Under the pieces are notes generated by a model. The model had not been told where the DNA came from, searched no databases, and saw only the letters and a list, made by a program, of their open reading frames with translations. This document shows positions 1 to 38,374 of a DNA stretch of 38,374 bases, one piece after another; position 1 is the stretch's first letter, and the number at the start of each line of letters is the position of its first letter. The position numbers and the translations under genes are program-made. The stretch is from a virus, in the UHGV virus genome UHGV-0295649; one strand, written 5' to 3'.

Positions 1-183
1 TGTTTATTTTGTGGTGATTTAATCATACTAGAGAACGATATGTTTTTTAATACCTAAAATGAAAATGGGGCTGAAGAATCAATTCTGATTCATCAGTCCC
101 ATAAATTATAGAGCCAAAACAAACCTATACAGTAGGCTTCTTTATAGTGCCTATTGTATCAGAGAAAGAGAGTAGATTCAATT

Positions 184-1323
184 ATGGCAAGATTAGTCAA
201 ACGTGGAAATAGTTGGCAATACGAAATTTCATACAAAAAAGATGACGGAAAATACACGAAGATAAGAAAATCAGGATTTAAGACAAAAGGAGAAGCAAAA
301 GATGCCGCCAACGAATTAGAATATAACTTGAACAAAGGCCTTAAAGGGGATCGCAAAAATCTATTATTATCAGATTACTTTGAGGATTGGATGCAACTTT
401 ATAAAGAAGGAACAGTATCTCCTATCACTTATAGAAAATACGAAGATACGTTAATGAACATAAAGAAATATATGCCAGCGGTATTGATTTCTGATTTAGA
501 TAGAGTGGGATATCAACGCTTTTTAAATAAGTATGCTAAAGACCATGTAAAATCTACCGTTATTAAGTTTAATAACCATATTAGAGCGTCGTTGAAAGAT
601 GCCGTAGAAGAAGGATTAATTCCGTTTGATCCAACTAGAAAAGCAGTAATCAAAGGAAAAGATTCATTGAAGCCAAAAGAAGATAAATATTTAGATTATG
701 ATCAATTTAAATCTTTAATGAAACTCGTAGAAGAAAACCTTTCTGCGCAGTACTCTTCTCCTATGCTCGTGTTAGTTGCTGGTGCCACTGGAATGCGATT
801 TGCTGAACTTCTAGGATTAACATGGGAAGATATCGATTTCGAAGATCAAATCATCACTATTAATAAAACATGGAATTATAAATTAAATGAATGGGGAAAA
901 ACAAAAAACGAAACTTCAAATAGGAAAATTTCCATTGATAAACATACGATTGATCTCTTAAAAAAGTTTAAAATCAATCAAAAAGAATTATTCGAGAATT
1001 TTGAAATCAAAAACCCTCATAATTTTGTTTTTTTCAACTTAAAAAATGGATTAGTTTCATCAAACGCCGTCAGCAAATATTTGCGCAAAAAATTAAAAGA
1101 ATTAGGGATTGAAAAGCAATTTACTTTGCATGGACTAAGGCATACACATGCATCTATTTTACTTTATCAAGGAGTAAATATACTTAGCGTATCGAAACGT
1201 TTAGGACATAGCAGTTTAGAAACTACAATGTCTACTTATCTTCATATTGTTCGAGAGCTTGAAGATCAGGATAAAGAAAAAATCAATACTGTGTTCGATA
1301 GTTTATATAAAAATGATAACTAG
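184..1323 (+). CDS. int: tyrosine recombinase / phage-type integrase
   Basis: ORF 154-1323. C-terminal catalytic region HGLRHTHASILLYQG...LGHSSLETTMSTYLH is the tyrosine-recombinase signature. ATG at 184 (MARLVKRGNSWQY) is preferred over the upstream TTG. Transcribed toward the tRNA at 2420-2493. Confidence 0.85.
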   Translation: MARLVKRGNSWQYEISYKKDDGKYTKIRKSGFKTKGEAKDAANELEYNLNKGLKGDRKNLLLSDYFEDWMQLYKEGTVSPITYRKYEDTLMNIKKYMPAVLISDLDRVGYQRFLNKYAKDHVKSTVIKFNNHIRASLKDAVEEGLIPFDPTRKAVIKGKDSLKPKEDKYLDYDQFKSLMKLVEENLSAQYSSPMLVLVAGATGMRFAELLGLTWEDIDFEDQIITINKTWNYKLNEWGKTKNETSNRKISIDKHTIDLLKKFKINQKELFENFEIKNPHNFVFFNLKNGLVSSNAVSKYLRKKLKELGIEKQFTLHGLRHTHASILLYQGVNILSVSKRLGHSSLETTMSTYLHIVRELEDQDKEKINTVFDSLYKNDN

Positions 1324-1343
1324 TTTGGCACATTTTTGGCACA
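1324..1343. repeat. tandem direct repeat TTTGGCACA x2 immediately after the int stop
   Basis: TTTGGCACAtTTTTGGCACAaa read directly. A second pair lies at 1496-1516. Confidence 0.7.
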
Positions 1344-1356
1344 AATACAAAACAAA

Positions 1357-1390
1357 CCCCTGTACCGCAAAGGATACAGGGGTTATTTAT
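1357..1390 (+). terminator. rho-independent terminator of int
   Basis: Stem CCCCTGTA/TACAGGGG with a 10-nt loop, followed by TTATTTAT. Confidence 0.6.
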
Positions 1391-1495
1391 ACGTTCCTGA
1401 CTAACTATTACACGTCTTCTGTTGTGTTTGTTATTGCAGGAAATCTTAATATAGAAGGTTTTCTATTTGTTTACATTTTGTTGAATTCGAATTTT

Positions 1496-1516
1496 TTTGG
1501 CACATAATTTGGCACA
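1496..1516. repeat. second tandem pair of TTTGGCACA direct repeats
   Basis: TTTGGCACAtaaTTTGGCACAag. Same unit as 1324-1343, about 150 bp away and flanking the int terminator. Confidence 0.7.
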
Positions 1517-1603
1517 AGTACTTGTTTTCTATTATTCAGTATATTAAATTCCGCCTTCACAAAAAGAACATTCGTTCGTATACTCTTTTTGAGGTGAACT
1601 TTT

Positions 1604-1906
1604 ATGCTGATGGAAGGAAAAACACAATTATGGTTTAAATTTGACCCTTCGAATAGATTTATCAAAGATTTTTATAAAGTATGGAATTCAGAAGTTTTCT
1701 TTTTAGCAATCGAAGATAGCTTATTAATCAATCTCTACTATTCTAATAAGAACTATTTCAAAATTCCTGCTGCGAAAACTAGAATGAAGAAGGGTGTATA
1801 CTTTTTGTTTGATATCGTGACTGACGTGCCGGACGCACGTAGCGATCATCGGCGTTATGACTATATAAAGTATACTTTCGTTGATCCAGAAAGGTATAAA
1901 GATTAA
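1604..1906 (+). CDS. hypothetical protein (100 aa)
   Basis: ORF with RBS GAGGTGA 6 nt upstream of the ATG. No recognisable motif. Confidence 0.5.
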   Translation: MLMEGKTQLWFKFDPSNRFIKDFYKVWNSEVFFLAIEDSLLINLYYSNKNYFKIPAAKTRMKKGVYFLFDIVTDVPDARSDHRRYDYIKYTFVDPERYKD

Positions 1907-2106
1907 AGTAGGCTACCTAAAAAGGTAGCCCGGAACGAATTTTATCACCATACTTGTGAAAGGAGATATTTTTTAAGTTAGTATTAAGATTGTGTAATAT
2001 GATGATATCTATATTTTATAGTATCAGTGCTATAAAATCAAAAATAAGTCACTAATTAACTACCACTCCAATTGTAAGCCTTTTTTCTCACTTTTTTTCA
2101 AAAATA

Positions 2107-2207
2107 TGGTATGCTTTTTAATGGCTTCAAATATAAAAGAGTTTAAAGCGTAACACACTTATGGGGAAGTGGTTTGGGGTGCGCTTTAAACTCTTCTTTA
2201 TTATTAT
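2107..2207 (+). ncRNA. candidate small RNA: extended -10 TGgTATGCT, a 14-bp perfect inverted repeat hairpin, then a U-tract
   Basis: TGGTATGCT at 2107-2115. AAGAGTTTAAAGCG (2137-2150) pairs with CGCTTTAAACTCTT (2182-2195). Followed by CTTTATTATTAT. No ORF. Confidence 0.3.
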
Positions 2208-2315
2208 CTCACAATTTAACCCAAATGTCTTTCTATTTAAAAATCAAAGTAAAACTTTTCAAATATACAGAAGTATAACTATGTGAAACATCCTTTCATT
2301 AATCCATAAAAGGAT

Positions 2316-2343
2316 ACATAAAAAAGCCACTCATTTGAGTGGC
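2316..2343 (-). terminator. rho-independent terminator downstream of the tRNA
   Basis: Minus-strand stem GCCACTC/GAGTGGC followed by a U-run (A-run on the plus strand at 2316-2325), about 80 nt 3' of the tRNA. Confidence 0.6.
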
Positions 2344-2419
2344 AATGAAGAAAAGCTTTAGCTTGTATAATACTCTTCAAAAAAATTCTAACACAGAACG
2401 ATTCAAATGGCTACGTTAA

Positions 2420-2493
2420 TGTACCCTGTAGGACTCGAACCTACGACCGGACGGTTATGAGCCGTCTGCTCTGACCAACTGAGCTAAGGGTAC
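2420..2493 (-). tRNA. tRNA with anticodon CAU (elongator Met or Ile2/lysidine type; not initiator)
   Basis: The reverse complement folds as a canonical 74-nt cloverleaf. It has a perfect 7-bp acceptor stem (GTACCCT/AGGGTAC), D-arm GCTC..GAGC, anticodon stem GACGG/CCGTC with loop CTCATAA, and T-arm GTAGG-TTCGAGT-CCTAC. The G1-C72 pair and the lack of a GGG/CCC anticodon stem exclude an initiator. CCA is not encoded. Confidence 0.9.
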
Positions 2494-2616
2494 TGGTTGT
2501 TGCCACATAAAGCCATAAACAATCAACCAGTAGAATGTGTGGCAACAAACCTGTTATCGCATAGCTTGGAGTGTGACTATTTATGGGTGATAGTGAAGAT
2601 ATGCGATAACATCACT

Positions 2617-2646
2617 ATTTTATCGAATAATTTTTATAGTTGTCAA
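2617..2646 (-). promoter_or_regulatory. candidate sigma70 promoter for the tRNA (TTGACA-18-TAAAAT on the minus strand)
   Basis: Reverse complement of 2641-2646 is TTGACA and of 2617-2622 is TAAAAT, about 120 nt upstream of the tRNA 5' end. Confidence 0.4.
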
Positions 2647-2660
2647 TATAGTTATGTACT

Positions 2661-2688
2661 GCTCCTCAACGAGGAGCTATTTTTATCG
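2661..2688. terminator. GC hairpin GCTCCTC-AAC-GAGGAGC plus TATTTTTAT overlapping the endolysin stop
   Basis: Read directly. The T-run follows the stem on the plus strand. Sits at the 3' end of the lysis operon, so it may act bidirectionally. Confidence 0.4.
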
Positions 2689-3708
2689 TTTAGGAATATT
2701 TAAATACCAACGTTTGTCATGGAAATCTTGCGCACCGCCTTTAGTGTTTCCCTCTGGATCATTCGTTGCCCGCATCATTACATAGACTTTCTTACTAGGA
2801 AAATTACGCATATTGAAAGATACATGATAACCAACATTTCCAGAAGTATTATAAGCTTGGTTTACATCTGGTCTATAAATTCCATCAGCTCTTACTCGAG
2901 CTAATTCTTTCCCAGTATTGTAGTCCATAATGAAAATATACTCGTATTTATAGTTAGCAATGTGCCATCCAGCCACATGCAAGTTTGCGTTTTCGATTTC
3001 CCCAAACTGATCAATGTGGGCGTGATTTGTTCCATCTGTCAGCGTAGGATTAGCTGCACCAGCTCGTGTTGGATCAATGACAGGCTTGTTTTCAGAAGTT
3101 GTTGGATTTTCATCGGTAAATCCATGAGCTAAATCATAAGCAAGCTTTTCTTTGCTAACTCCCATTTGCGATAAGTAACCATATGGATCTGTGTGGTTCC
3201 CCCAAACATAATTTGTCACCCACAAATGAGAAATGATTCCTTTTGTAAATAAAGAAGTTCCTTGATCAAGAGTCAATGGAATTCCATATTTTTTTGCACT
3301 ATCTCTTGTATATTCAATATAAGCTCGATAGTTTTTTTCAAACAATGCTTTATCATATGTGCGCTGTAATTCAATCTGTACAGGCGCATAAGGATTAGCG
3401 TTACCAGCTCCCCACGAAACATATCCTTGCTCACCCACACGGTAAACAATCCCACCGTCACCAATAACATCTGTAGTATAAGAATTGCTTCCGTTATAAT
3501 TATTTTTCATGTTGGCGGCTACGTTTCTTGCTGGTGCATCTATTCCAGTTTCGTGCAAAATAATTTTGTTAGGAATTGCTAATCTGGAGTCTCCTTGATT
3601 CGGCGCTAAATTATACTCGTCATTAATAGTATAAGCAAACGTATTAATGGGTAATAAAAAAAGAGCCGTTAACAGGCTCATCGCAGTAATAGTAATTTTC
3701 TTTTTCAT
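2683..3708 (-). CDS. endolysin, N-acetylmuramoyl-L-alanine amidase (amidase_2/PGRP-like) with N-terminal signal peptide
   Basis: N-terminus MKKKITITAMSLLTALFLLPINTFA is a signal peptide. ILHETG..., HLWVTNY... and GNHTDP motifs are amidase_2-like. Last gene of the lysis cassette. Confidence 0.75.
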   Translation of the reverse strand: MKKKITITAMSLLTALFLLPINTFAYTINDEYNLAPNQGDSRLAIPNKIILHETGIDAPARNVAANMKNNYNGSNSYTTDVIGDGGIVYRVGEQGYVSWGAGNANPYAPVQIELQRTYDKALFEKNYRAYIEYTRDSAKKYGIPLTLDQGTSLFTKGIISHLWVTNYVWGNHTDPYGYLSQMGVSKEKLAYDLAHGFTDENPTTSENKPVIDPTRAGAANPTLTDGTNHAHIDQFGEIENANLHVAGWHIANYKYEYIFIMDYNTGKELARVRADGIYRPDVNQAYNTSGNVGYHVSFNMRNFPSKKVYVMMRATNDPEGNTKGGAQDFHDKRWYLNIPKR

Positions 3709-3929
3709 TTGTTTCCTCCTTCTTCGCTTTCAGCCGAGAACATTTTGTAGGTTCGATTTGATACACCCAACACACTCCCTAAAAACGCGCCAAAACCAGT
3801 AATGATGACAACACAGATATCTGTGTACTGCCAATTGAGCGCTTTACCAACTAACCCCACGAAAGTAGCTAGTGCGGGAATAATTACCAGTGCGAACCAT
3901 TTTAGTACTTCGAACGTTTTATTATTCAT
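3705..3929 (-). CDS. holin (two predicted TM helices)
   Basis: 74-aa protein with two hydrophobic helices and a charged C-terminus, immediately upstream of the endolysin. Confidence 0.75.
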   Translation of the reverse strand: MNNKTFEVLKWFALVIIPALATFVGLVGKALNWQYTDICVVIITGFGAFLGSVLGVSNRTYKMFSAESEEGGNK

Positions 3930-4219
3930 TTTCTTCTCTCCCTAAATAAAGTTTTAATTTGTTGCGTGTGTTCTACCAATTTTTCTGCATGTGTATCTAA
4001 TCTTTCATCGTGTTTCTTTAGTTCTTCATGAATCATCAATCGATCTGATTTGCTCGATTCTAAATCTTTAGTCAGCAAATCTAAATTGTGACTTACTTTT
4101 GAAAGAGTCTCAGTAATCTTCGAGAAAGATGCAGTAATTGGTTTTATTACTAATAAAATCAAAGAAACGATAGCGGTTATTGATCCTGCTATCGCTCCCC
4201 ATTCCCCTAAATTAATCAT
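3926..4219 (-). CDS. XhlA-like phage membrane protein (haemolysin XhlA family)
   Basis: 97 aa with an N-terminal TM helix and a C-terminal coiled coil. Sits upstream of the holin as in the PBSX xhlA-xhlB-xlyA cassette. Confidence 0.65.
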   Translation of the reverse strand: MINLGEWGAIAGSITAIVSLILLVIKPITASFSKITETLSKVSHNLDLLTKDLESSKSDRLMIHEELKKHDERLDTHAEKLVEHTQQIKTLFRERRK

Positions 4220-7115: not shown

Positions 7116-9407
7116 TTAAAAACGTTTTTGGTCAAGCACTGTGCTATCATATGCTGTATCCTCTTTTAATCTAATATCTTCATACCCTAGACGGTGTGCC
7201 ACTAAATTCCATCTAACTAATACGTTTGGCTTACTAGTTTCAATGATGAAATGGTCAATATCTTCATGAGTAACAGCACACAAAACTAGTTCTGTAGGTG
7301 TCACATGTGTCATATACCGACTTAGATTTACTGTTTCAGCAAACATGGGGTCAATATCAACACGAACTTTACCATTGTCACCTGTAACGGCTTCCCCATA
7401 ATCAGCGAAATAATATTCTGGAGTTTCATAAGCGTTCAATAGTCGTTGTCCATAATGTTCTGTTGGTACAGTTGAGTTTTTAGTACCTCTAACAGTAAAA
7501 TCTTTATATACTTGTACCGTTGATTGTTCAAACCTAGCAAGTTTCCCATCTTCCCATGAACCAAAAAAACAACCTGGTAACGTTAGCATACCATCACTAG
7601 TAAATTTCATAGTCCTACCAGCTACCTTAAATTCCCATGAGTTACCCGCACTACCATTAATGCTTAAAGAACTACCGTCGCCAGAAGTTACATAACTAGC
7701 ATTGCTATACCTGAAATTGGGCGCACCAAAAGATAGAAACGGTCTGTTATTACCATTATCCCACGTACTAAAAACCAAGTTACCCTGTGGATTTCTAATC
7801 ATGAAACCACCACCAGTTTTCATGGTGTATGATACAATACCGGCATCAGCACTTACATAATCACGTGCTTCTAGCTCCATAATATCTTTGTTAACTTTTT
7901 TTGAGTACCAAGTCATTTTGCCATTAGCTATACTTGTTCTATAATCAGTGCCATCACTAATTAATGTAGTACCTCTAATAGTAATCCCTACTATCTCACC
8001 AGCTGTAATAAACGAGGCATTGAATCCGCCATCTAACGTCCATGCGGTGTCATACGTTCCATTAATGCCAGTTTTAGAGAAACCAATACCAGCGTTGTTG
8101 ATTTGCAAAACGTTCCGTGCAGTATTCTTATCTGGTGTGTCCATAATCAAAATACGACTAGGGGCTTCTTTAGGATCTAATAAAACGTAACCACCATTTT
8201 GACCAGTAATCATATCAGTTTGATGATCTACAATATCATTGATTAAATCACTGATTTCGCCACCATTTTTCAATTGATCAATGGCATCATTAATCAAATT
8301 GCTGACATTATTCTCTGTATTTTCTAAGAAGTTTGTTTTGACGTTTCCTACAACTAATTTATCGTATGAGTTGGTTAAAACATTAAACGTATATTCCACG
8401 ATTCTTGCTGACATATTCACTTTTAACTGTGGATGATACACATCTACTCCGTCACCCATCGAAACTTTTTCTAGATCAACAAATTTTTCATAGCCTCTCT
8501 GATGCCTTAATGGTACTAATTCAATCGAACCACTCACTTGTGGTTTTTGTTTATCTATATTTGTTTTCAACCAGTCTTTAGCAGCTTCCCTTAATGTGGC
8601 TACATCAGTCGCTTTGTCTTTGAAATCAACAAAAGATACATATCCAGCAGGATAATCATCCACGTAATCCGTGAAAATGACTTCTTCTGGCAGAGTAATC
8701 TCATCCTCTCCTTCTGAAGAACTGCTAATGAATGGATAAACTCCAACTAAAACGCTTTGAGCATCTATCTCTAAGTCAAGACCAGTTAAGTTTTTAGTAT
8801 AAATCGCTTTGATTTTATGATCCGTGCCTAGCCTTGTTTCATGACGTAATGTGTTATTATCTTTTAGAAATTCACCATGAAATCGATCTAGAATAGATCC
8901 CTCTTTTCCACCAAAGAATTCTAAAAAATTCGCTTTTTCTATCTTCACATTAGCAAGCGTATCTACTAATGATGAGAAAGAAAACTGCGAAGGGATAGCT
9001 GGTTTCGCTAAAACTTTTGCGTTTTGCCATGCCTGAGTAGCAGTGATTTTTTCTGTTCCGCTGTCATATTTATTCAACACCGATTTTCTTATATCATTGA
9101 AAATAGGTTCAGCTTTTACTTCTATCGTATTGCCTATTACAGAAGTTTTTGCATAATAAATCCGTAGACGCTGTTTTGCTCGATTTTCATCTACATAACA
9201 CTGAATAATACGTCCTTCTACAATCAAATCTGCATTAGTTCCGCTTATTGGATAAGTACCCTGAAATATCTCGGCTCCGTTTAGTTTATTGCTAACAGTA
9301 GCTGTTAACCAGTCTGACAAAGCGCCTAAACCTTGCGTATCATATAAATGTTCAGCTAAATTATTCGCGTCATTTTTATCGTAAATAGTTATTAAATTAT
9401 CGATCAT
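7116..9407 (-). CDS. tail-associated endopeptidase / Tal-like minor tail protein
   Basis: 763 aa, immediately downstream of Dit and the tape measure. Conserved Dit-Tal synteny of siphophages. Confidence 0.7.
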   Translation of the reverse strand: MIDNLITIYDKNDANNLAEHLYDTQGLGALSDWLTATVSNKLNGAEIFQGTYPISGTNADLIVEGRIIQCYVDENRAKQRLRIYYAKTSVIGNTIEVKAEPIFNDIRKSVLNKYDSGTEKITATQAWQNAKVLAKPAIPSQFSFSSLVDTLANVKIEKANFLEFFGGKEGSILDRFHGEFLKDNNTLRHETRLGTDHKIKAIYTKNLTGLDLEIDAQSVLVGVYPFISSSSEGEDEITLPEEVIFTDYVDDYPAGYVSFVDFKDKATDVATLREAAKDWLKTNIDKQKPQVSGSIELVPLRHQRGYEKFVDLEKVSMGDGVDVYHPQLKVNMSARIVEYTFNVLTNSYDKLVVGNVKTNFLENTENNVSNLINDAIDQLKNGGEISDLINDIVDHQTDMITGQNGGYVLLDPKEAPSRILIMDTPDKNTARNVLQINNAGIGFSKTGINGTYDTAWTLDGGFNASFITAGEIVGITIRGTTLISDGTDYRTSIANGKMTWYSKKVNKDIMELEARDYVSADAGIVSYTMKTGGGFMIRNPQGNLVFSTWDNGNNRPFLSFGAPNFRYSNASYVTSGDGSSLSINGSAGNSWEFKVAGRTMKFTSDGMLTLPGCFFGSWEDGKLARFEQSTVQVYKDFTVRGTKNSTVPTEHYGQRLLNAYETPEYYFADYGEAVTGDNGKVRVDIDPMFAETVNLSRYMTHVTPTELVLCAVTHEDIDHFIIETSKPNVLVRWNLVAHRLGYEDIRLKEDTAYDSTVLDQKRF

Positions 9408-10204: not shown

Positions 10205-13200
10205 TTAACGCCATGCCGAAGCATTATCATTTTGAACTTTTGTAATGCTATCAATGATTTGTTGAGTTGTTTGCTTCATAGTGACTTCATCTGCGTTACC
10301 ATCAATTGTGAAATTGAATTCGTAATTGTTCACAGGTTGAACCGCTTGTGTCCTAGATGAAACTGAGGTGCTACTCAAGATACGATCACCAATTTCTTGC
10401 AGAACAGATCTTTTCAAAGGTAAGACTGCTTCAGGTCCTGCTTCACCGACACCGATAATATTCGGAGAATTAAACACACTACCTTTCGCATACCAATCAA
10501 CACCCAACGTTGGGATTTTTCCCTTCAATGGATTGAATTCCCCACTCAATTTAAAATGTGGTAACGGAATATGTGGTATAGAAATATTCAAATTATCAAA
10601 AATACCACTGATTTTATCTCTAATCCAATCAATCGGAGCGCTAACAGTCTTTTTGATACCTTCCCAAATGTTAGCAATTGTACTTTTAACATTATTGAAT
10701 ATGTCGGAAACAATACCTGTTAGATTGGACCAACCGCTTGAAATTGCATTTTTTCCATCGTTTACTTTAGAGCTAATAGTGCTTGTAATTCCATTCCAAA
10801 GATTCAAAGCAGTGTTTTTGATACCGTTCCAAATTCCGCTGATCCACGAAGATATACTATTCCAAACACTTTGAATGGCACTTTTAGCTGCGTTTATAGC
10901 ATTGCTTATACTACTAGTCACACTATTCCAGATATTTGATGCTGTAGAGCTGATTGAATTCCAAATTCCACCTAACCAACTAGATACAGTTGACCAAATA
11001 TTTTGAATTACTGTAGCAGCTGCTTGTACCAAGCTAGTGATTGTATTCTTGATACTGTTCCAAATACTAGAAGCTGTTGCACTAATTGAATTCCAAATAT
11101 TTGAAGCCGTAGTACTAATAGCTGTCCATATACCATTCCACCATGCCACTACTGGATCAAATATAGTATGGAATGTAGTTACAATCCCATTCCAAGCGAT
11201 ACTTATCCATTGTGTCATAGTATCCCAAGTATTTTTAAGGAAATCAGAAATAGGTGTCCAAACAGCTTGCCAAGCTGCGCCTAATAACTGTCCAGCTACA
11301 TCAAAAATACCCACGATAATATTAATACCAGCTTGAATCAATGACGTTATTAATGTCCATGGTATTTGAACAATTCCTACAATGTCTGCCCAAATAATCG
11401 ACCATACTTCTTTGACTCCGTTCCAAATATTTGAAACCCAATCAATGAATGTTTGCCAAGTCTCTTGGACTCCTTGCCAGATGTTGGAAGCTCCTTCAAC
11501 TAATCCGCTCCATAACTCTCCAAACCAATCAGAAACTCCTTGCCAAATTTCTTGAACCCAATCTACAAATCCAGACCAGGTTTCTTTGACTCCATCCCAA
11601 ACTGATGAGGCACTTTCTTTTATGCTTTCCCAGGTATCACCTAACCAATCGGTAAATTTTTTCCATAAATCACTAAACCAGTCAGTGATTGCGCCCCAGT
11701 TTTGAAACGCTGTAATTACAATCGCTATTACAGCTGCAACGCCCGCTATAATTCCTATTATTGGCAGCAAAACTGTAGAACCAAATGTGCCAACTATCGT
11801 AACAACTGCGGTTATAACAGGAGCTAATGTGCTTAATAATGCTAGAATTCCTCCAAGAGCTAAAATGAAATTTTTCATTGGCCCATCAAGTTTACTCCAC
11901 CATTCGGCTAATCCTTGCAAAGCTTTCGCTCCTGCTTGCAACCCTTTGATAAACACAGGCAGTATATCTTCACCCAATGAGGCATAAAAATCTTCTAACG
12001 CTTGCTTTGCTCTTGTCATTTGGTTTTCTAAACCATCAGACTCCCTACTAGCCTGACCTGTAGCACCGGCTAATTTTTGCATATCTTCAGCATATTGAAC
12101 TCGAACTGCTTGCTTGGTAGCCTCATCTAAATCAGACCATTTTTGCGTTTGTGGGCCTAATTCTTCATTTATTTTATCTTGCGCATCTTTAAGTTTTAAA
12201 GCAGCCTCTCTTGCTTCTAAAGATCCTTCACCATGTTTCTTAATAGCATCAGCATACTTAGATTGTGCTTTTTCAACAGCTAACAATGACTCTTCACTGG
12301 CTTTTTTTGCTCCTTCAGTCGCTGGTATCAAATTATGCTTAACAGCATAAGCTGCCATTTGAGTATCATTAGCAAATAAACCTATTTGCTCCCCACCTTC
12401 GTAGTTCCCTTTTATAAATGAATTAAGAGATTCACTAGCATCATCCATAGACTTATCGTAAAAAGCTGCTGCATCTGCTGCTAACTGAGTACTATCACCA
12501 GCTAACTCCATAGCTTCTTTGGTATCATATCCAAGTCCTTTAAACATTGACGTATATTGTGTAAAAACAGGCTTGATCGTATTTGGTAACATTCCAAATT
12601 CTTCAGCCATTCCCTCAACGGCGTCCTGTGCTTCCCCTTCTAAAGAGCCAAAGACTTGTTTAAATTGGGCCTGCATAGCTTGTGCTTTTCCAGCTGCTTC
12701 AATAGACTTACTACCTACATCAATAAGCTTATCTCCGATCACTGACAAGTGATCAGTAGCTTCCATTAAATTACCCATATCAAGTTTTTTGCCGATATCA
12801 TCTACTGTGGAGGTATCAACGTTTTTAGCAGCATTACTTAATTCTTCGAATTCTCTTTCCGCATCATTAAGCTTAGTTTTCATTTCTAAAGCTTCGGTAG
12901 ATGTTTCTCCAAATTCTTTTTGTGTGGCATCTAATTGTTTTTTTAGCACTTCGATTTTTTGTTCAGCAATATCACTCTGTTTGCCGACATATTCTTGTGC
13001 TTTTGCTAATTTTTCAGATTCTGTAGCAGACTGGCCAGCAGTTGCTTGCCATTTTTTATATTCGGATTCTACTAATGATGCGCTTGACTTTAGATGTTGT
13101 TGCTCATTATCTAAGTCTTTCATAGTTGACTCATACGTTTTAAATTCACCTTTAGATTGAGCCAATGCCTTACTCGTTTTATCTATATCATTAGATAACC

Positions 13201-13525
13201 TTTGCTGAGCTGTTTGTTGATTAATCAGTTCTCTTTCAAGTTTCTGAACTTCGGTGGAATTTTCTCCATAATATTTTTTGGCATTGGCTAAACGTTGACT
13301 AGTTACTTCAACTTTTTGACTTTGTAATTCATACTGCTTTTCTAAAGAAGATAATTTACTTCCTAACTTGTCTGATTCAGAACCAGTCTGTTGTAATTGA
13401 GCTTGTTCTAGTTTTAATTCTGCTCTATTTTTAGTTAATTCAGCACTGATTTCTTTTAACGTAGATTTCAATCCGTCATCGTTAGCTATGAAAGTTACTT
13501 CTGCTTCTGTTCTCTTTTTAGCCAT
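10205..13525 (-). CDS. tail tape measure protein
   Basis: 1106 aa. N-terminal coiled coil, central TM segments, long W-rich degenerate repeats (..IWNSI.., ..WQG..). Largest tail-module gene. Confidence 0.9.
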   Translation of the reverse strand: MAKKRTEAEVTFIANDDGLKSTLKEISAELTKNRAELKLEQAQLQQTGSESDKLGSKLSSLEKQYELQSQKVEVTSQRLANAKKYYGENSTEVQKLERELINQQTAQQRLSNDIDKTSKALAQSKGEFKTYESTMKDLDNEQQHLKSSASLVESEYKKWQATAGQSATESEKLAKAQEYVGKQSDIAEQKIEVLKKQLDATQKEFGETSTEALEMKTKLNDAEREFEELSNAAKNVDTSTVDDIGKKLDMGNLMEATDHLSVIGDKLIDVGSKSIEAAGKAQAMQAQFKQVFGSLEGEAQDAVEGMAEEFGMLPNTIKPVFTQYTSMFKGLGYDTKEAMELAGDSTQLAADAAAFYDKSMDDASESLNSFIKGNYEGGEQIGLFANDTQMAAYAVKHNLIPATEGAKKASEESLLAVEKAQSKYADAIKKHGEGSLEAREAALKLKDAQDKINEELGPQTQKWSDLDEATKQAVRVQYAEDMQKLAGATGQASRESDGLENQMTRAKQALEDFYASLGEDILPVFIKGLQAGAKALQGLAEWWSKLDGPMKNFILALGGILALLSTLAPVITAVVTIVGTFGSTVLLPIIGIIAGVAAVIAIVITAFQNWGAITDWFSDLWKKFTDWLGDTWESIKESASSVWDGVKETWSGFVDWVQEIWQGVSDWFGELWSGLVEGASNIWQGVQETWQTFIDWVSNIWNGVKEVWSIIWADIVGIVQIPWTLITSLIQAGINIIVGIFDVAGQLLGAAWQAVWTPISDFLKNTWDTMTQWISIAWNGIVTTFHTIFDPVVAWWNGIWTAISTTASNIWNSISATASSIWNSIKNTITSLVQAAATVIQNIWSTVSSWLGGIWNSISSTASNIWNSVTSSISNAINAAKSAIQSVWNSISSWISGIWNGIKNTALNLWNGITSTISSKVNDGKNAISSGWSNLTGIVSDIFNNVKSTIANIWEGIKKTVSAPIDWIRDKISGIFDNLNISIPHIPLPHFKLSGEFNPLKGKIPTLGVDWYAKGSVFNSPNIIGVGEAGPEAVLPLKRSVLQEIGDRILSSTSVSSRTQAVQPVNNYEFNFTIDGNADEVTMKQTTQQIIDSITKVQNDNASAWR
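10560..11700. repeat. degenerate tandem repeats inside the tape measure gene
   Basis: Recurrent ttccaaat/ccaaatatt DNA words encoding repeated IWN/SIWN peptide units. Confidence 0.5.
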
Positions 13526-35238: not shown

Positions 35239-35279
35239 ATAAAGTTAAATATTTTTTCTTGAACGAAAGGAATATTGAT

Positions 35280-35600
35280 ATGATAACGTTTGAGAGAATA
35301 AAAGAGTTAGCGAAAAAACAGGGAAAATCATTAAATAAAGTTGAAGAAGACCTAGGCTATGGTAAAAACGTCTTATATAGACTTAAGAACTCAAACCCCT
35401 CTACAGAACGTTTGCAAGAAATTGCTGACTATTTCGATGTCTCTGTAGACTATCTTCTGGGGCGCGAAGAAAAAGAAACCCCTAAACATGTGGATTTATC
35501 AGAAAACGATACTGTTTTTTCTTTTGATGGAAAAGAAATATCTAAGGAGACAATGCGTAAAGCGATTGCAATTGCTAAAGCTTTAGAGGAAAATGAATAG
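35280..35600 (+). CDS. XRE-family (cI-like) repressor
   Basis: MITFERIKELAKKQGKSLNKVEEDLGYGKNVLYRLKN is an HTH_XRE. Divergent from the early operon and followed by ImmA. Confidence 0.8.
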   Translation: MITFERIKELAKKQGKSLNKVEEDLGYGKNVLYRLKNSNPSTERLQEIADYFDVSVDYLLGREEKETPKHVDLSENDTVFSFDGKEISKETMRKAIAIAKALEENE

Positions 35601-35605
35601 TTGGA

Positions 35606-36040
35606 GTGATGGGTTGTATGTATTTAAAGTTGAAAGAAATGCTGAGTGAGTATAATTTAAAGTTAATCTATATGGAAATGGAAGAACCAGGTTTTTATTA
35701 TCCAAAACCAAGAATAGTATTTTTAAACGAAAAACTACACGAAGATAGTTCTGAAGCTTTTCATTTAGCCCACGAGCTCGGTCATTTCATTGCTTCACAT
35801 TTTGAATATTCAGTACTGTACGATAACTCTACAACTTTTCATTCAAAATTCGAAACTGAAGCTGATAAAATTGCAATTATGATTTTACTAAATATCTTTA
35901 TTGAGAATGAACTGACTGATGAATCTCAGTTCAAATTGGAAAATTTTATGGAATTCTATACTATCAATAATAAGTTAAGAACAGAATGTTTTAATGTTTG
36001 CCAGTCATATTTCAAGAAAAAATACTCTTATGCACAGTAA
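35606..36040 (+). CDS. ImmA/IrrE-family metallopeptidase (repressor-cleaving antirepressor protease)
   Basis: HELGHFIASHFE carries the HEXXH zinc-binding motif. Small size and position right after the XRE repressor. Confidence 0.75.
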   Translation: MMGCMYLKLKEMLSEYNLKLIYMEMEEPGFYYPKPRIVFLNEKLHEDSSEAFHLAHELGHFIASHFEYSVLYDNSTTFHSKFETEADKIAIMILLNIFIENELTDESQFKLENFMEFYTINNKLRTECFNVCQSYFKKKYSYAQ

Positions 36041-36124
36041 AAAAAGCCCGTGCTGCAACACGGACTCATACCTCAATTACGAGAATACGTTTATATTATA
36101 ACAAGAAATGAGGAGTGAGTAAAA

Positions 36125-36613
36125 ATGAAAAAGAAATTTATCCCTTTAGTTATTCTTGCTGCTTTGTCATTAGCCGCGTGTGGTAGCTCGGATAATTCTT
36201 CAAGTGCAAATAGTAGTTCAAAAACTTCAAAGTCTACTACTGTTAGTTCTGCAGAATCAAAAAAAGATTTACCTTCAGAAGATCAAGGAACTGGAACAAT
36301 GTACTTATCTGGTCCTGGAGGAACAACAGAAAACGGAGAAACTCTTACTATTTTTGATGATGGAGATACACAAGCAATGCAGATTGGCATGGATGTTAGC
36401 GAGTTAGATGTAAACAAATTATCCTATATTTATATTGATGGAACACTCTCTTCTAAAGATCAACTGTCAACTGGACAATCTACTTTAGGTCTAACAAAAG
36501 AAAATTTGACTCCAGGAAGACATACTGTAAATCTTGTTCAATACGATAATAATAGTGAAGATGGATCTATTGTTATAAATAAAGTAGCTAACTATGAAGT
36601 TACTAAAAAATAA
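36125..36613 (+). CDS. prophage lipoprotein (candidate superinfection-exclusion/moron)
   Basis: Signal peptide with lipobox LAAC, then a Ser-rich linker. Located in the lysogeny module. Confidence 0.65.
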   Translation: MKKKFIPLVILAALSLAACGSSDNSSSANSSSKTSKSTTVSSAESKKDLPSEDQGTGTMYLSGPGGTTENGETLTIFDDGDTQAMQIGMDVSELDVNKLSYIYIDGTLSSKDQLSTGQSTLGLTKENLTPGRHTVNLVQYDNNSEDGSIVINKVANYEVTKK

Positions 36614-36636
36614 ATATTAAATATTGGAGAATTATT

Positions 36637-36927
36637 ATGGCAAAAGCATCTAAAACTCAACAAGCATTAATAGAAAATGTTCTAGACTATGCTTCAAGTT
36701 TCAAAAGAGGTAACGTACAATCTGTATCATTCAATATCCAAAGAAAAATTAGCAGCAGTGCAGTTTCTTCTATGGACGATAAACTAAATGATACTTTAAA
36801 TACTATTTTACATGGATTACAAGAAATGGATTATGAAATCATAGATATAGCAGTTAATTCGATGCAAGTTAAAAATCCATTGAGTGGCATGTCCTTAAAC
36901 TTTAATTATACTATTTTGATCAAATAA
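36637..36927 (+). CDS. hypothetical protein
   Basis: 96 aa. RBS TGGAGA. Follows the lipoprotein gene after 24 nt. Confidence 0.5.
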   Translation: MAKASKTQQALIENVLDYASSFKRGNVQSVSFNIQRKISSSAVSSMDDKLNDTLNTILHGLQEMDYEIIDIAVNSMQVKNPLSGMSLNFNYTILIK

Positions 36928-36975
36928 TAAAAACACGCCCACCGTCCAAAGCAAGCGTGTTCTAAGAAAAACAAA

Positions 36976-38374
36976 GGCTCTTTGTCAATAAGGACTGATG
37001 AGTTGTGCAAAATCAAATCTGAGTCAGAATGAACCACATTCTGGCTCAGATTTTTTGTTATCTTACATTGATTAATTGATTGATCAAAAAGATTCTAATT
37101 CTCATGTTCTCAAATGATTTAAATCCGTAGGATACTCGTTTCATTGTCTTTATGTGGGTATTCTTCGCTTCTATTTTTCCATTGGAATAAGGATAGATCA
37201 TTGCGTTGGTGATGCCTTCTTCATAGGTCAGAAGGTTTTGAAGCTTTTCCCGAAAGCTGTCATCTAACGTTTCGGGAAGTTCTGCCAATAAGGAGAAAAA
37301 TAAGTCAGGGTCTTTGTCTCGAAAGGCTTCAACTAATTCATGAAAAAAGGGATACGCCTCCTTTAGGGGCGGAGAAAACTCAAGCAATCGATCAATCATC
37401 ATTGCTTCAGTAAGAAATGGGTATTTTGGTGCTCGGAAACTTTTCCATGTTTTGTATTCATAATGGTTGATGTTTGCACGATTTTTTAGCAAAAAGCGCC
37501 AGTTCTTTTTCAGTTTTTCTGCCTGGCTTTTCTGTCCGGCTTTACGAAGTTCATTCATTTCACGGATACGCAACTCATTGAACGCTTGATTCATGTGTTT
37601 GACAATATGAAACCGATCAATCACGACTTTCGCATTTGGCAGAACACGTTTGGTGAGCTGGAAGTAGGCGGCGTTCATGTCTGTCACCAAGAATTCTACT
37701 TCTTCTGGATTGGTACAACCTAAGAAATAGCTTGTTAATCGAGGTAATTTACGCGTAGGCAAAACATCTATTAATTTTCCTGTTTCGCCATCCGCGCAAA
37801 TAAAGCTCATCTTATCTTCTATGGAAGCATGCGAACGAAATTCGTCAACCATCAATACTCTGGGGAGGATCTTCTTAGATTGCTTTGGTAAATAGCTTTT
37901 AAACTCTTTCAATGTACGAATAACGGTGGTCAAAGATACCTGACAGCTTTTCGCAATAAAAGATAAAGATACTTTTTCAGTCAGTAAAGAAGCAATTTTA
38001 TATCTAACATGATTTGCGATTGAATGTCTGGGTTGGACAAAATAACTTTGAGCCGTCCAATGGGTGCGACAGTTTTTACAGGTATAGCGTTGCTTTTTTA
38101 GGCGCATAACCAAAGGCATATGATTGTATTGTTCAAAACGGACAATCGTTTCCTTTTTTCCATTTTTCACTATAATTGCTTTCCCGTTTCCATCTACCAC
38201 AGTAGAACCACAACTTCTACAAGCACGAGGAGTAGGCGAGAGAACAGCATCGACGACCAACGTCTTTTTCTTCTGAAGGGTCTCGTAAGAGACCTCTGTA
38301 ATCATCAAATCTTTCTCTGTTATTCTCAGCATTTTTTTGATAGAATCATTCATATAGCGTATCGTCCTCTCAGT
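36976..38374 (-). mobile_element. ISL3-family insertion sequence, truncated by the window edge
   Basis: Terminal inverted repeat beginning GGCTCTTTGTCAATAAGG...GTGCAAAAT at 36976. Internal 15-bp hairpin at 37017-37051. The other IR is beyond the window. Confidence 0.75.
37058..38353 (-). CDS. ISL3-family transposase
   Basis: 431 aa. N-terminal Zn-ribbon CRSCGS...CKNCRTHW. Typical ISL3 DDE transposase sequence. Confidence 0.85.
   Translation of the reverse strand: MNDSIKKMLRITEKDLMITEVSYETLQKKKTLVVDAVLSPTPRACRSCGSTVVDGNGKAIIVKNGKKETIVRFEQYNHMPLVMRLKKQRYTCKNCRTHWTAQSYFVQPRHSIANHVRYKIASLLTEKVSLSFIAKSCQVSLTTVIRTLKEFKSYLPKQSKKILPRVLMVDEFRSHASIEDKMSFICADGETGKLIDVLPTRKLPRLTSYFLGCTNPEEVEFLVTDMNAAYFQLTKRVLPNAKVVIDRFHIVKHMNQAFNELRIREMNELRKAGQKSQAEKLKKNWRFLLKNRANINHYEYKTWKSFRAPKYPFLTEAMMIDRLLEFSPPLKEAYPFFHELVEAFRDKDPDLFFSLLAELPETLDDSFREKLQNLLTYEEGITNAMIYPYSNGKIEAKNTHIKTMKRVSYGFKSFENMRIRIFLINQLINVR

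What the first reader, a model, noticed from the sequence alone, without database searches (positions are those of the whole stretch)
1..2700. Integrase, tRNA and TTTGGCACA repeats at the left edge: a second integrative element or an atypical prophage junction
The tyrosine integrase (184-1323, plus strand) is transcribed toward the 3' end of the minus-strand tRNA(CAU) 1.1 kb away. This is the classic arrangement for an element integrated at a tRNA 3' end and extending leftward out of the window. The large prophage lies on the 5' side of the tRNA, an atypical side for tRNA-targeting integration. It has no integrase at its lysogeny end, where an ISL3 sits. Four TTTGGCACA direct repeats in two tandem pairs flank the int terminator 150 bp apart, like arm-type Int/Xis binding sites. 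Alternatives are a neighbouring satellite or PICI-like element, or the phage's own att-int region with the phage carrying the tRNA.
Basis: partly seen in the sequence, partly recalled or inferred. Interest (0 to 1): 0.55.

Follow-up and report, generated by a model that had tools for sequence, protein, structure and literature searches.

The report
Phage's own integrase and attachment site
The left edge of the window is not a second mobile element: the window is one circular Enterococcus faecium phage genome that was opened inside an insertion sequence, and the integrase, its repeat-flanked attachment site (aimed at a tRNA-Arg gene) and a cargo tRNA all belong to that ordinary temperate phage.

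Summary
The main interpretation is wrong.

- **The window is a circle.** Bases 36976-38374 plus 1-115 form one 1514-bp ISEfa11-like ISL3 element. It is gap-free and 100% identical to another copy across the 38374->1 joint, and it is flanked by an 8-bp target duplication (AAAACAAA).
- **The integrase belongs to the phage.** The integrase (184-1323) therefore sits at the phage's own lysogeny end, separated from it only by the IS.
- **The target is tRNA-Arg(CCU), not tRNA(CAU).** Integrated relatives in E. faecium chromosomes diverge from the window exactly at 1402. There they continue into a tRNA-Arg(CCU) gene, whose last 12 nt are window 1391-1402.
- **The repeats bracket the core.** The two TTTGGCACA pairs lie on either side of this core. 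Phages with 28-43% identical integrases show the same two-plus-two layout with different motifs, which fits arm-type Int sites.
- **The tRNA(CAU) is cargo.** It has its own promoter and terminator and is most likely tRNA-Ile2. DUF5960 is also cargo.

This is a textbook lambda-type attP, of low novelty.

The parts
1..115 (-). Terminal 115 bp of the ISEfa11-like ISL3 element, including its inverted repeat (...ATAGAGCC). It continues from window position 38374.
   Evidence: Window 36976-38374 joined to 1-115 matches the IS copy in L004 6248-7761 at 100% over 1514 bp with no gap. Inverted repeats shown. Homology to phage 4995_1 starts at 116.
116..123 (.). 8-bp target-site duplication AAAACAAA. 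The other copy is at 36968-36975.
   Evidence: In the IS-free locus L003 the two flanks overlap by these 8 bp (L003 9933-9940).
184..1323 (+). Tyrosine integrase (379 aa), the phage's own, with an N-terminal arm-binding domain.
   Evidence: Pfam PF00589, PF14657 and PF13102; PHROG 1 integrase. The identical protein sits at the lysogeny end of E. faecium prophages. It is 43-47% identical to lactococcal P335-group integrases.
1324..1343 (+). P-arm pair of TTTGGCACA repeats (1324-1332, 1335-1343), which start at the base after the int stop codon. Putative arm-type Int sites.
   Evidence: Conserved in all relatives, and partly even in the decayed E. villorum remnant.
1355..1384 (.). Hairpin that serves as a terminator. 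After integration it replaces the native terminator of tRNA-Arg, and it also closes int.
   Evidence: Terminator scan; fold -19.5 kcal/mol, z -4.4. A homologous hairpin follows tRNA-Arg in the empty site of E. lacertideformus.
1353..1402 (.). attP block similar to attB (the core region). Its right edge at 1402 is the point where integrated relatives diverge from the window.
   Evidence: Int-side junctions L001-L010 match the window up to 1402. Far-side junctions L011-L020 match 1345-1907. Alignments. The sequence TACGTTCCTGACT occurs once in the window.
1391..1402 (-). Phage copy of the last 12 nt of the host tRNA-Arg(CCU) gene.
   Evidence: ARAGORN places tRNA-Arg(CCT) at L003 11208-11283 (-). 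Window 1391-1402 corresponds to L003 11208-11219.
1496..1516 (+). P'-arm pair of TTTGGCACA repeats (1496-1504, 1508-1516). Putative arm-type Int sites.
   Evidence: The pair stays conserved in L033 and L050, where the surrounding P' arm has diverged.
1604..1906 (+). DUF5960 cargo gene (100 aa), with promoter-like site at 1556-1584 and terminator at 1910-1931.
   Evidence: Pfam PF19385 at 3.5e-18; PHROG 16386, unknown function; no PADLOC hit; promoter and terminator. It lies inside the prophage in L011-L020.
2420..2493 (-). Phage-borne tRNA with anticodon CAU, most likely tRNA-Ile2 (lysidine type). It has its own promoter (2646-2617) and terminator (2343-2326).
   Evidence: The identical gene is annotated tRNA-Ile in OP745419. 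It has A3-T70, C4-G69 and C5-G68, which mark tRNA-Ile(CAT) according to PMC1635315. It is present in phage records PQ283533 and OP745419.
2683..3708 (-). Endolysin (amidase), the last gene of the late operon, on the far side of attP.
   Evidence: Pfam Amidase_2; PHROG endolysin.
35259..36927 (+). Lysogeny module that leads to int: HTH_3 repressor, ImmA/IrrE M78 peptidase, a 162-aa lipoprotein-like protein and a 96-aa protein.
   Evidence: The same gene order, ending in int, is seen in L001-L010 and in phage 4995_1.
36976..38374 (-). Main part of the ISEfa11-like ISL3 element (transposase 37058-38353), inserted between the lysogeny cargo genes and int.
   Evidence: Pfam DDE_Tnp_ISL3 at 2.3e-58. 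100% identical copies occur in E. faecium plasmids annotated 'ISL3-like element ISEfa11 family transposase'.

Best explanation
The window is the complete circular form of a 38.4-kb temperate siphovirus of Enterococcus faecium, written out linearly with its start inside an ISEfa11-like ISL3 insertion.

**Layout.** Going round the circle, the order is: lysogeny module, IS, int, attP, cargo (DUF5960 and a tRNA), endolysin, then the late genes.

**The integrase and attP.** The integrase is the phage's own lambda-type (heterobivalent) tyrosine recombinase. Its attP spans about 1324-1516.
- The core region (about 1353-1402) copies the last 12 nt of the host tRNA-Arg(CCU) gene plus that gene's terminator hairpin.
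- Integration at the 3' end of that tRNA therefore rebuilds the gene.
- Two tandem TTTGGCACA sites 11-12 bp apart lie on each side of the core. I infer that these are the arm-type sites bound by the Int N-terminal domain, which would bend attP into the recombination complex.

**The tRNA(CAU).** The tRNA 1.1 kb downstream is not an attachment site. It is a separately transcribed cargo gene, probably tRNA-Ile2 that reads AUA.

**What is shown and what is inferred.**
- Shown by sequence comparison: the circular permutation, the IS insertion with its target duplication, the junction positions, and the tRNA-Arg target.
- Inferred: Int binding to the repeats, the exact strand-exchange position within the core block, and the tRNA's Ile identity.
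For: **Circularity**
- 36976-38374 plus 1-115 equals one 1514-bp IS, 100% identical and gap-free to L004 6248-7761 across the joint.
- It has an 8-bp target duplication AAAACAAA.
- In IS-free L003 the two IS flanks are contiguous.
- The att core occurs once in the window.

**Int belongs to the phage**
- The identical Int follows the HTH_3-M78-cargo genes in E. faecium prophages L001-L010 and in phage 4995_1.

**Target site**
- Int-side junctions end at window 1402 and continue into tRNA-Arg(CCT).
- Far-side junctions carry window 1345-1907 and then the prophage lysin.
- The empty site in E. lacertideformus has M29, then tRNA-Arg with its own hairpin, then the acetyltransferase gene, with no int and no repeats.

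**attP seen intact elsewhere**
- It is contiguous in independent records: OP745419 (a circular record), IMG/VR contigs L047, L052, L033 and L050/L051, and several 36-40 kb PLSDB records, 36-40 kb, of which CP063545.1 and NZ_CP042838.1 also span int.

**Arm sites**
- Int has PF14657 Arm-DNA-bind_4.
- There are 4 exact repeats against 0.36 expected.
- The same layout, abutting the int stop codon, recurs with other motifs:

| Phage (Int identity to the window's) | Motif | Offsets from int stop |
|---|---|---|
| Window | TTTGGCACA | +1, +12, +173, +185 |
| B1578 (28%) | AAAGTATGGTCA | +2, +14, +229, +240 |
| Listeria PLM34 (40%) | TTTGCCAC | +1, +12, +207, +218 |
| BK5-T (43%) | TACAACAA | +7, +18, +198, +209 (the last with one mismatch) |

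- The P' pair is conserved in attP copies whose flanks have diverged.
- The literature offers a parallel: 10-bp ATTTGCACAA repeats proposed as arm sites in oenophage attP (PMC8074189).

**tRNA as cargo**
- It has its own promoter and terminator.
- It is present in some relatives and absent in others.
Against: - I was not told the origin of the window, so circularity is inferred from the seamless IS joint and not read from a record header.
- No single genome was examined at both prophage ends. The two junction types come from different assemblies and are linked through the empty site of another species.
- In E. faecium the far-side flank holds an int fragment (window 1130-1239), not naive bacterial DNA. 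A scar from an earlier prophage has to be assumed to explain it.
- No excisionase was identified.
- Int binding to TTTGGCACA is untested.
- The IS lies 68 bp upstream of int and may affect its expression, so this particular copy may not be integration-proficient.
Confidence: 0.87

Rival explanations
1. [quoted passage not shown] On this reading the big prophage has lost its integrase.
For: Int is transcribed toward the 3' end of the minus-strand tRNA(CAU). No int lies between the lysogeny genes and the ISL3 at the right end when the window is read as a linear sequence.
Against: - Left of int there are 68 bp and then the IS end, whose other 1399 bp are the right end of the window.
- The window holds no second copy of the tRNA(CAU) 3' end.
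- In integrated relatives the tRNA(CAU) lies inside the prophage beside the lysin, and the junction with the chromosome is at tRNA-Arg.
- The identical int directly follows the same lysogeny module in IS-free prophages.
Confidence: 0.02
2. The window is chromosomal: two tandem copies of the prophage (a dilysogen) regenerate an attP-like joint between them, and the window happens to span one unit.
For: Tandem lysogens do carry an intact attP between the copies. The int-attP-lysin order would look the same (inference).
Against: The two IS pieces at the window ends add up to exactly one IS, with no base missing or duplicated. A window cut at arbitrary points would give this only about once in 38,000 tries. 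The same phage family is deposited repeatedly as separate circular 36-40 kb records.
Confidence: 0.03
3. The circle is an assembly artefact: an integrated prophage was closed on itself through the short repeats shared by its two ends.
For: Integrated copies do share window 1345-1402, and a 110-bp int fragment, at both ends.
Against: The shared block is only about 58 bp, and the far-side copy lacks 1240-1344. The window carries the full P arm joined to the P' arm, as do independent records from other projects, including a metagenome contig. That joint needs real spanning reads. Either way, the integrase would still be the phage's own.
Confidence: 0.05
4. The TTTGGCACA pairs are not Int arm sites. 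They would instead be operators for another protein (an excisionase, a host factor, or a regulator of int or DUF5960 expression), or they have no function.
For: No binding data exist. The second pair lies 40-60 bp upstream of the DUF5960 promoter-like site at 1556-1584.
Against: - The repeats bracket the mapped core at distances typical of attP arms.
- The layout recurs beside integrases of 28-43% identity whose downstream genes differ. The motif changes with the integrase.
- Int carries an arm-binding domain.
- The first pair starts at the base after the int stop codon in four phages. That ties it to int and not to the cargo genes.
Confidence: 0.12

Closest known systems
Int/attP modules of lactococcal P335-group phages (bIL309, BK5-T, r1t, phiLC3, Tuc2009)
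   Same: The integrases are 43-47% identical over the full length. In BK5-T the attP lies directly 3' of int, with a tandem pair of short repeats next to the stop codon (+7, +18) and a second pair about 200 bp downstream. From memory, the TTCTTCATG core of the phiLC3/BK5-T group lies between the pairs; that string is present at about +85 in BK5-T.
   Different: The repeat motif (TACAACAA) and the core differ. The lactococcal phages do not target tRNA-Arg(CCU). The host genus also differs.
Enterococcus phage 4995_1 (OP745419) and the same-family circular E. faecium 'plasmid' records (e.g. CP063545.1, NZ_CP042838.1, NZ_LR135447.1)
   Same: For 4995_1, Int is 99.2% identical, the attP carries the same four TTTGGCACA repeats, the tRNA(CAU) is identical, and the late genes are 98% identical over 12 kb. 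The PLSDB records are the same phage family at 95-98% identity. The records with stated topology are circular.
   Different: In 4995_1, three extra small genes and an IS3 element lie between a truncated DUF5960 and the tRNA. No ISEfa11 lies upstream of int in 4995_1; its homology runs through position 116. The early regions differ.
Enterococcus phage vB_ElaS_B1578 (PQ283533)
   Same: The gene order is the same: repressor, ImmA, int, attP, DUF5960, tRNA(CAU), lysin. The DUF5960-tRNA block is 95% identical. The repeat layout after the int stop codon is the same two-plus-two arrangement.
   Different: Int is only 28% identical, the repeat motif is AAAGTATGGTCA, and there is no tRNA-Arg core sequence. 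It therefore uses a different attachment site, and the integration module has been swapped.
Lambda Int heterobivalent recombination (arm-type P/P' sites plus core)
   Same: Int has an N-terminal arm-binding domain as well as core-binding and catalytic domains. Short direct repeats lie on both arms around a core shared with attB.
   Different: There are two plus two sites, all in one orientation and abutting the int stop codon. The core overlaps a tRNA 3' end and its terminator. The accessory factors (IHF, Xis and Fis in lambda) are not identified here.
Oenococcus oeni IntF/IntB prophage attP (PMC8074189)
   Same: The 10-bp direct repeats ATTTGCACAA, two on one arm and four on the other, are proposed as arm sites for the Int N-terminus. 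The attP/attB identity block is long (63 bp). That motif resembles TTTGGCACA. Oenococcus phage integrases are among the tblastn hits.
   Different: The number of repeats, the host and the target gene differ. In both cases the evidence is bioinformatic only.

Membership tests
Lambda-type (heterobivalent) tyrosine integrase with attP | C-terminal tyrosine-recombinase catalytic domain | tested here: met
   PF00589 at 1.8e-32 over residues 168-355. The conserved HGLRHTHAS and LGH...TY.H motifs align with phage integrases.
Lambda-type (heterobivalent) tyrosine integrase with attP | Separate N-terminal arm-DNA-binding domain | tested here: met
   PF14657 Arm-DNA-bind_4, residues 11-53, 36.8 bits against a cutoff of 22.3.
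Lambda-type (heterobivalent) tyrosine integrase with attP | Repeated arm-type sequences on both sides of the core, distinct from the core sequence | tested here: met
   TTTGGCACA twice at 1324-1343 and twice at 1496-1516, around the core at 1353-1402. The layout is conserved with other motifs in four other phages.
Lambda-type (heterobivalent) tyrosine integrase with attP | Core sequence shared by attP, attB, attL and attR | tested here: met
   The window (attP), L001-L010 (int-side junction), L011-L020 (far-side junction) and L025 (empty site) share ...TACGTTCCTGACT.
Lambda-type (heterobivalent) tyrosine integrase with attP | Physical binding of the Int N-domain to arm sites; dependence of recombination on them | not testable with these tools
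   Needs EMSA or footprinting and attP mutants.
Lambda-type (heterobivalent) tyrosine integrase with attP | Recombination directionality factor (excisionase) | tested here: inconclusive
   No Pfam or PHROG excisionase hit among the small early ORFs. Only DUF771 and HTH proteins were found.
Prophage integrating at the 3' end of a tRNA gene | attP carries a copy of the tRNA 3' end, so that the gene is rebuilt on integration | tested here: met
   Met for tRNA-Arg(CCU): window 1391-1402 supplies the last 12 nt of the gene in L001-L010.
   There is no second copy of its 3' end. The whole gene travels inside the phage in the circular and the integrated forms.
Satellite / PICI-like second element | Its own set of genes next to int (regulator, replication, packaging interference), bounded by its own att repeats | tested here: not met
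   Upstream of int are 68 bp, an IS, and then the helper-size phage's own repressor module. There is a single att core.
ISL3-family insertion sequence (ISEfa11-like) | DDE_Tnp_ISL3 transposase, terminal inverted repeats and an 8-bp target duplication | tested here: met
   PF01610 at 2.3e-58. The inverted repeats are GGCTCTTTG.../GGCTCTATA..., and the duplication is AAAACAAA. 100% identical copies elsewhere are annotated ISEfa11 family.
tRNA-Ile2 (anticodon CAU, lysidine-modified) | Acceptor-stem discriminators against tRNA-Met/fMet: position 3-70 not C-G, with C4-G69 and C5-G68 | tested here: met
   The sequence GTACCCT...AGGGTACA gives A3-T70, C4-G69 and C5-G68. The criteria come from PMC1635315. 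The identical gene is annotated tRNA-Ile in OP745419.
tRNA-Ile2 (anticodon CAU, lysidine-modified) | Lysidine at C34 and charging with isoleucine | not testable with these tools
   Needs tRNA mass spectrometry or an aminoacylation assay.

The most novel reading that the evidence does not exclude
This phage family may persist in E. faecium as a free circular episome and not only as an integrated prophage. In this particular copy, the ISEfa11 insertion 68 bp upstream of int may have cut int off from its transcription, which would lock the genome out of the chromosome. The evidence does not exclude this. The window has an intact attP and no chromosomal junction, and related genomes are deposited as separate 36-40 kb 'plasmids' in PLSDB.
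Probability: 0.1. Interest if true: 0.4.

Novelty: new member of a known kind. Interest (0 to 1): 0.15.

Why it matters
Mainly as a correction. An apparently odd 'integrase on the wrong side, prophage without integrase' picture came from reading a circular genome as linear, with the cut inside an IS.

Some practical value remains:
- It gives the attP anatomy and the chromosomal target, tRNA-Arg(CCU) between the M29 aminopeptidase and an acetyltransferase gene, for a prophage whose integrase is very widespread in E. faecium assemblies. The identical protein is indexed in 8850 blocks of the collection.
- It shows that a 'two sites abutting the int stop codon plus two sites about 170-230 bp downstream' rule holds across this integrase family. 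That rule could help predict attP and arm-site specificity in Firmicutes phages.

Tried and rejected
- **Window-wide direct-repeat search for att pairs** between 2.5 kb and 37 kb: only chance-level matches.
- **Rfam on 1-4000:** only the tRNA passed. The hairpin at 2126-2206 gave sub-threshold miRNA noise.
- **Distant integrase loci L053-L055 from IMG/VR:** high-GC, unrelated phages, uninformative for arm sites.
- **IMG/VR close relatives:** most stop at the int stop codon (prophage-caller boundaries), so they add nothing on attP. Only L033, L047, L050 and L052 were useful.
- **PADLOC for DUF5960 and the lysogeny cargo genes:** no hits.
- **Excisionase search by Pfam and PHROGs:** nothing assignable.
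- **Literature search for this E. faecium att site:** nothing specific found. A search for the lactococcal core string was swamped by unrelated primers.
- **N-terminal domain alignment of five integrases:** too few sequences to show co-variation between the domain and the motif.

Full report
**Observation**

- The 379-aa ORF at 184-1323 (+) is a tyrosine integrase with an N-terminal Arm-DNA-bind_4 domain.
- A tRNA with anticodon CAT lies at 2420-2493 on the minus strand.
- TTTGGCACA occurs exactly four times in the window, all on the plus strand, at 1324, 1335, 1496 and 1508. Shuffles give 0.36 expected.
- In 530-bp windows across the whole sequence, only this region and a repetitive tail gene hold any 8-mer four times. 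Markov resampling of the region reaches that count in 6 of 3000 trials.
- A stable hairpin at 1355-1384 lies between the pairs.
- The rest of the window is a siphovirus-type temperate phage on the minus strand. Its endolysin is at 2683-3708, and its repressor/ImmA lysogeny module is at 35259-36040. An ISL3 transposase gene lies at 37058-38353.

**The window is a circle opened inside an IS**

- The first 115 bases of the window are the missing end of the ISL3 element that runs off the right end.
- I joined 36901-38374 to 1-300 and compared the result with other E. faecium loci. Bases 36976-38374 plus 1-115 matched a 1514-bp IS copy in locus L004 at 100% identity, without a gap, straight across the 38374->1 joint.
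- The element has imperfect terminal inverted repeats and is flanked by a perfect 8-bp duplication, AAAACAAA, at 36968-36975 and 116-123.
- In the IS-free relative L003 the two flanks are contiguous and overlap by those 8 bp.
- Copies 100% identical over bases 36976-38374 are annotated as ISEfa11-family ISL3 elements in E. faecium plasmids.
- Homology to the deposited Enterococcus phage 4995_1 begins at base 116.
- A window cut at random from a chromosome would not have two IS pieces that add up to exactly one element. The sequence is therefore a circular (or circularly permuted) 38,374-bp genome.
- The integrase lies immediately after the phage's own lysogeny genes, separated from them only by the IS.
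- This gene order (HTH_3 repressor, M78 peptidase, one to three cargo genes, int) is the one found around the identical integrase in ten E. faecium loci and in phage 4995_1.

**Where the phage integrates**

*The int-side junction.*
- In ten chromosomal loci carrying the identical integrase (L001-L010), similarity to the window runs from the IS boundary to base 1402 and then stops.
- The next bases there are a minus-strand tRNA-Arg(CCT) gene (ARAGORN, L003 11208-11283). An acetyltransferase gene and PTS genes follow.
- The last 12 nt of that tRNA, as called by ARAGORN, correspond to window 1391-1402. The phage therefore supplies the 3' end of the gene.

*The far-side junction.*
- In loci found through the DUF5960 protein (L011-L013 and L015-L020), the far end of the prophage reads as follows:
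  - an M29 aminopeptidase gene;
  - about 390 bp of flank;
  - a 110-bp integrase fragment (window 1130-1239);
  - a 105-bp gap relative to the window;
  - window 1345-1907;
  - then, in most of them, three small genes and IS3 copies, followed by window 1815-4000, which holds the tRNA(CAU) and the lysin.

*The empty and decayed sites.*
- A scan of species-representative genomes with the tRNA-Arg sequence gave three sites.
- E. lactis is occupied.
- E. villorum holds a decayed remnant of about 100 bp of int 3' end, with one intact and one damaged repeat.
- E. lacertideformus is empty. There the M29 gene, tRNA-Arg with its own terminator hairpin, and the acetyltransferase gene are neighbours, with no int and no TTTGGCACA.

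*What follows from this.*
- The attachment site is the 3' end of tRNA-Arg(CCU).
- The attP block similar to attB is about 1353-1402. It covers the tRNA 3' end plus the hairpin that terminates the tRNA on one strand and int on the other.
- The core string TACGTTCCTGACT occurs once in the window, as expected for attP.
- The int fragment on the M29 side of E. faecium chromosomes is best read as the scar of an earlier prophage. This is an inference.

**The circular attP joint is seen independently**

The P arm, core and P' arm are contiguous in several independent sources:
- the circular record OP745419;
- IMG/VR contigs L047, L052 and L033, and L050/L051, in which int is split across the contig ends;
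- PLSDB records of 36-40 kb from E. faecium. Two of them, CP063545.1 and NZ_CP042838.1, also match from base 116 across int.

The block shared by the two prophage ends is only about 58 bp, so an assembler would not close the circle without spanning reads. This is an inference.

**The TTTGGCACA pairs**

- With the core mapped, the pairs fall where arm-type sites are expected. One pair runs from the base after the int stop codon to about 10 bp before the core block. The other pair lies 94-114 bp beyond the block.
- The layout is conserved while the motif changes:

| Phage | Int identity to the window's | Motif | Offsets from int stop |
|---|---|---|---|
| Window | – | TTTGGCACA | +1, +12, +173, +185 |
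| vB_ElaS_B1578 | 28% | AAAGTATGGTCA | +2, +14, +229, +240 |
| Listeria PLM34 | 40% | TTTGCCAC | +1, +12, +207, +218 |
| Lactococcus BK5-T | 43% | TACAACAA | +7, +18, +198, +209 (the last with one mismatch) |

- In Listeria phage A006 (38% identical Int), an 18-mer is repeated on either side of the annotated attP core.
- For three of these phages, four copies of an 8-mer in the region occurred in at most 7 of 3000 resamples.
- In the attP copies of L033 and L050, the P' arm has clearly diverged around the pair, yet the pair itself is kept apart from one end base in L050.
- A published analysis of Oenococcus prophages proposes very similar 10-bp repeats (ATTTGCACAA) as Int arm sites (PMC8074189).
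Binding itself is untested, and no excisionase gene could be assigned.

**The tRNA(CAU) and DUF5960 are cargo**

- Both lie between attP and the lysin, in a variable region.
  - L013 has three other genes there and no tRNA.
  - L017 has both sets, separated by IS3 copies and a duplicated 93-bp DUF5960 3' end.
  - B1578 has DUF5960, the tRNA and three different genes.
- The tRNA has a near-consensus promoter (TTGACA-18-TAAAAT, 2646-2617) and its own terminator (2343-2326).
- It is identical to the gene annotated tRNA-Ile in OP745419.
- Its acceptor stem has A3-T70, C4-G69 and C5-G68. According to Silva et al. 2006 (PMC1635315), these mark tRNA-Ile(CAT) as against Met or fMet.
- AUA makes up 20% of Ile codons in 31 phage genes, against 10.6% in ten flanking chromosomal genes. 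The sample is small.
- DUF5960 has no assigned function.

**Comparison with known systems, and verdict**

- This is a standard lambda-type integration module of the Firmicutes phage integrase family that includes the lactococcal P335 phages (43-47% identity).
- It belongs to a phage family already present in GenBank and PLSDB.
- The headline interpretation, a second element at the tRNA(CAU) or an atypical junction, is not supported.
- The listed alternative (the phage's own att-int region, with a phage-borne tRNA) and the arm-site suggestion are supported.
- Novelty is low. I found no published description of this E. faecium att site. The recurring two-plus-two geometry next to the int stop codon is a modestly useful regularity.
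- The only less ordinary reading left open is that the family persists as an episome, perhaps favoured here by the IS upstream of int. I rate that at about 10%.

Noticed in passing
window 2420-2493 (-): ARAGORN calls the tRNA(CAU) Met, but it is probably tRNA-Ile2 (lysidine type). It has A3-T70, C4-G69 and C5-G68, and the identical gene is annotated tRNA-Ile in OP745419. AUA is 20% of Ile codons in the phage genes against 10.6% in ten flanking chromosomal genes.
   Followed up: partly
window 2494-2646 (-): A near-consensus promoter (TTGACA-18-TAAAAT, 2646-2617) lies about 120 nt upstream of the tRNA. The leader folds into two strong hairpins (-35 kcal/mol, z -3.3). Similarity to phage B1578 stops exactly at the tRNA 5' end, so the leader is not shared with it. 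Its role (processing or regulation) is unknown.
   Followed up: partly
window 2137-2196: A long, nearly perfect hairpin with a stem of about 16 bp (z -4.3 on the plus strand, -6.0 on the minus strand). It has T-rich tails on both strands and lies between the DUF5960 and tRNA transcription units. There is no Rfam family above threshold. It could be a bidirectional terminator or a small RNA.
   Followed up: partly
L011-L013, L015-L020 about 7634-7800 (e.g. L017 7634-7743); L024 about 1078-1243: E. faecium chromosomes carry a 110-bp integrase fragment (window 1130-1239) next to the att core on the M29 side. A 105-bp deletion there removes the int 3' end and the first TTTGGCACA pair. E. villorum keeps a different decayed remnant. 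Both look like scars of older prophages at the same tRNA-Arg site.
   Followed up: partly
L017 8212-8304 and 11691-11783 (= window 1815-1907): In many lysogens the last 93 bp of DUF5960 are duplicated on either side of an insert of three small genes (one DUF6941) plus IS3 copies. The window has the short form without the insert, which could arise by recombination between the two copies.
   Followed up: partly
whole window; PLSDB records CP063545.1, NZ_LR135447.1, NZ_LR135421.1, NZ_CP042838.1 and others: Several records of 36-40 kb filed as E. faecium plasmids are this phage family at 95-98% identity. So it is often assembled as a separate replicon. Whether that reflects spontaneous induction or episomal carriage was not examined.
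   Followed up: partly
window 116-183: The ISEfa11-like element sits only 68 bp upstream of the int start codon, with its transposase gene pointing away from int. The scan found no plus-strand promoter-like site in the remaining 68 bp, so int expression may be altered in this copy.
   Followed up: no
phage records PQ554527.1, OR846730.1, OR848098.1 and related OR84xxxx contigs: Records named 'Acinetobacter phage D2SVT' and 'Listeria phage LM 4-11-1 / 4-14-1' match this Enterococcus phage DNA at 92-96% identity, including DUF5960 and the tRNA. The host labels of those records look doubtful.
   Followed up: no
L014 7113-8303: In one genome a second DUF5960 copy lies at another locus, behind a PH/SHOCT-domain gene and next to IS110 and ISL3 elements, with no int. 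The PH-protein-then-DUF5960 order is the one seen in phage B1578.
   Followed up: no
window 10645-11438: The 1106-aa tail gene (10205-13525) contains degenerate direct repeats spaced at multiples of 33 bp (33, 132, 165). It is the only other place in the window with an 8-mer present four times in 530 bp.
   Followed up: no
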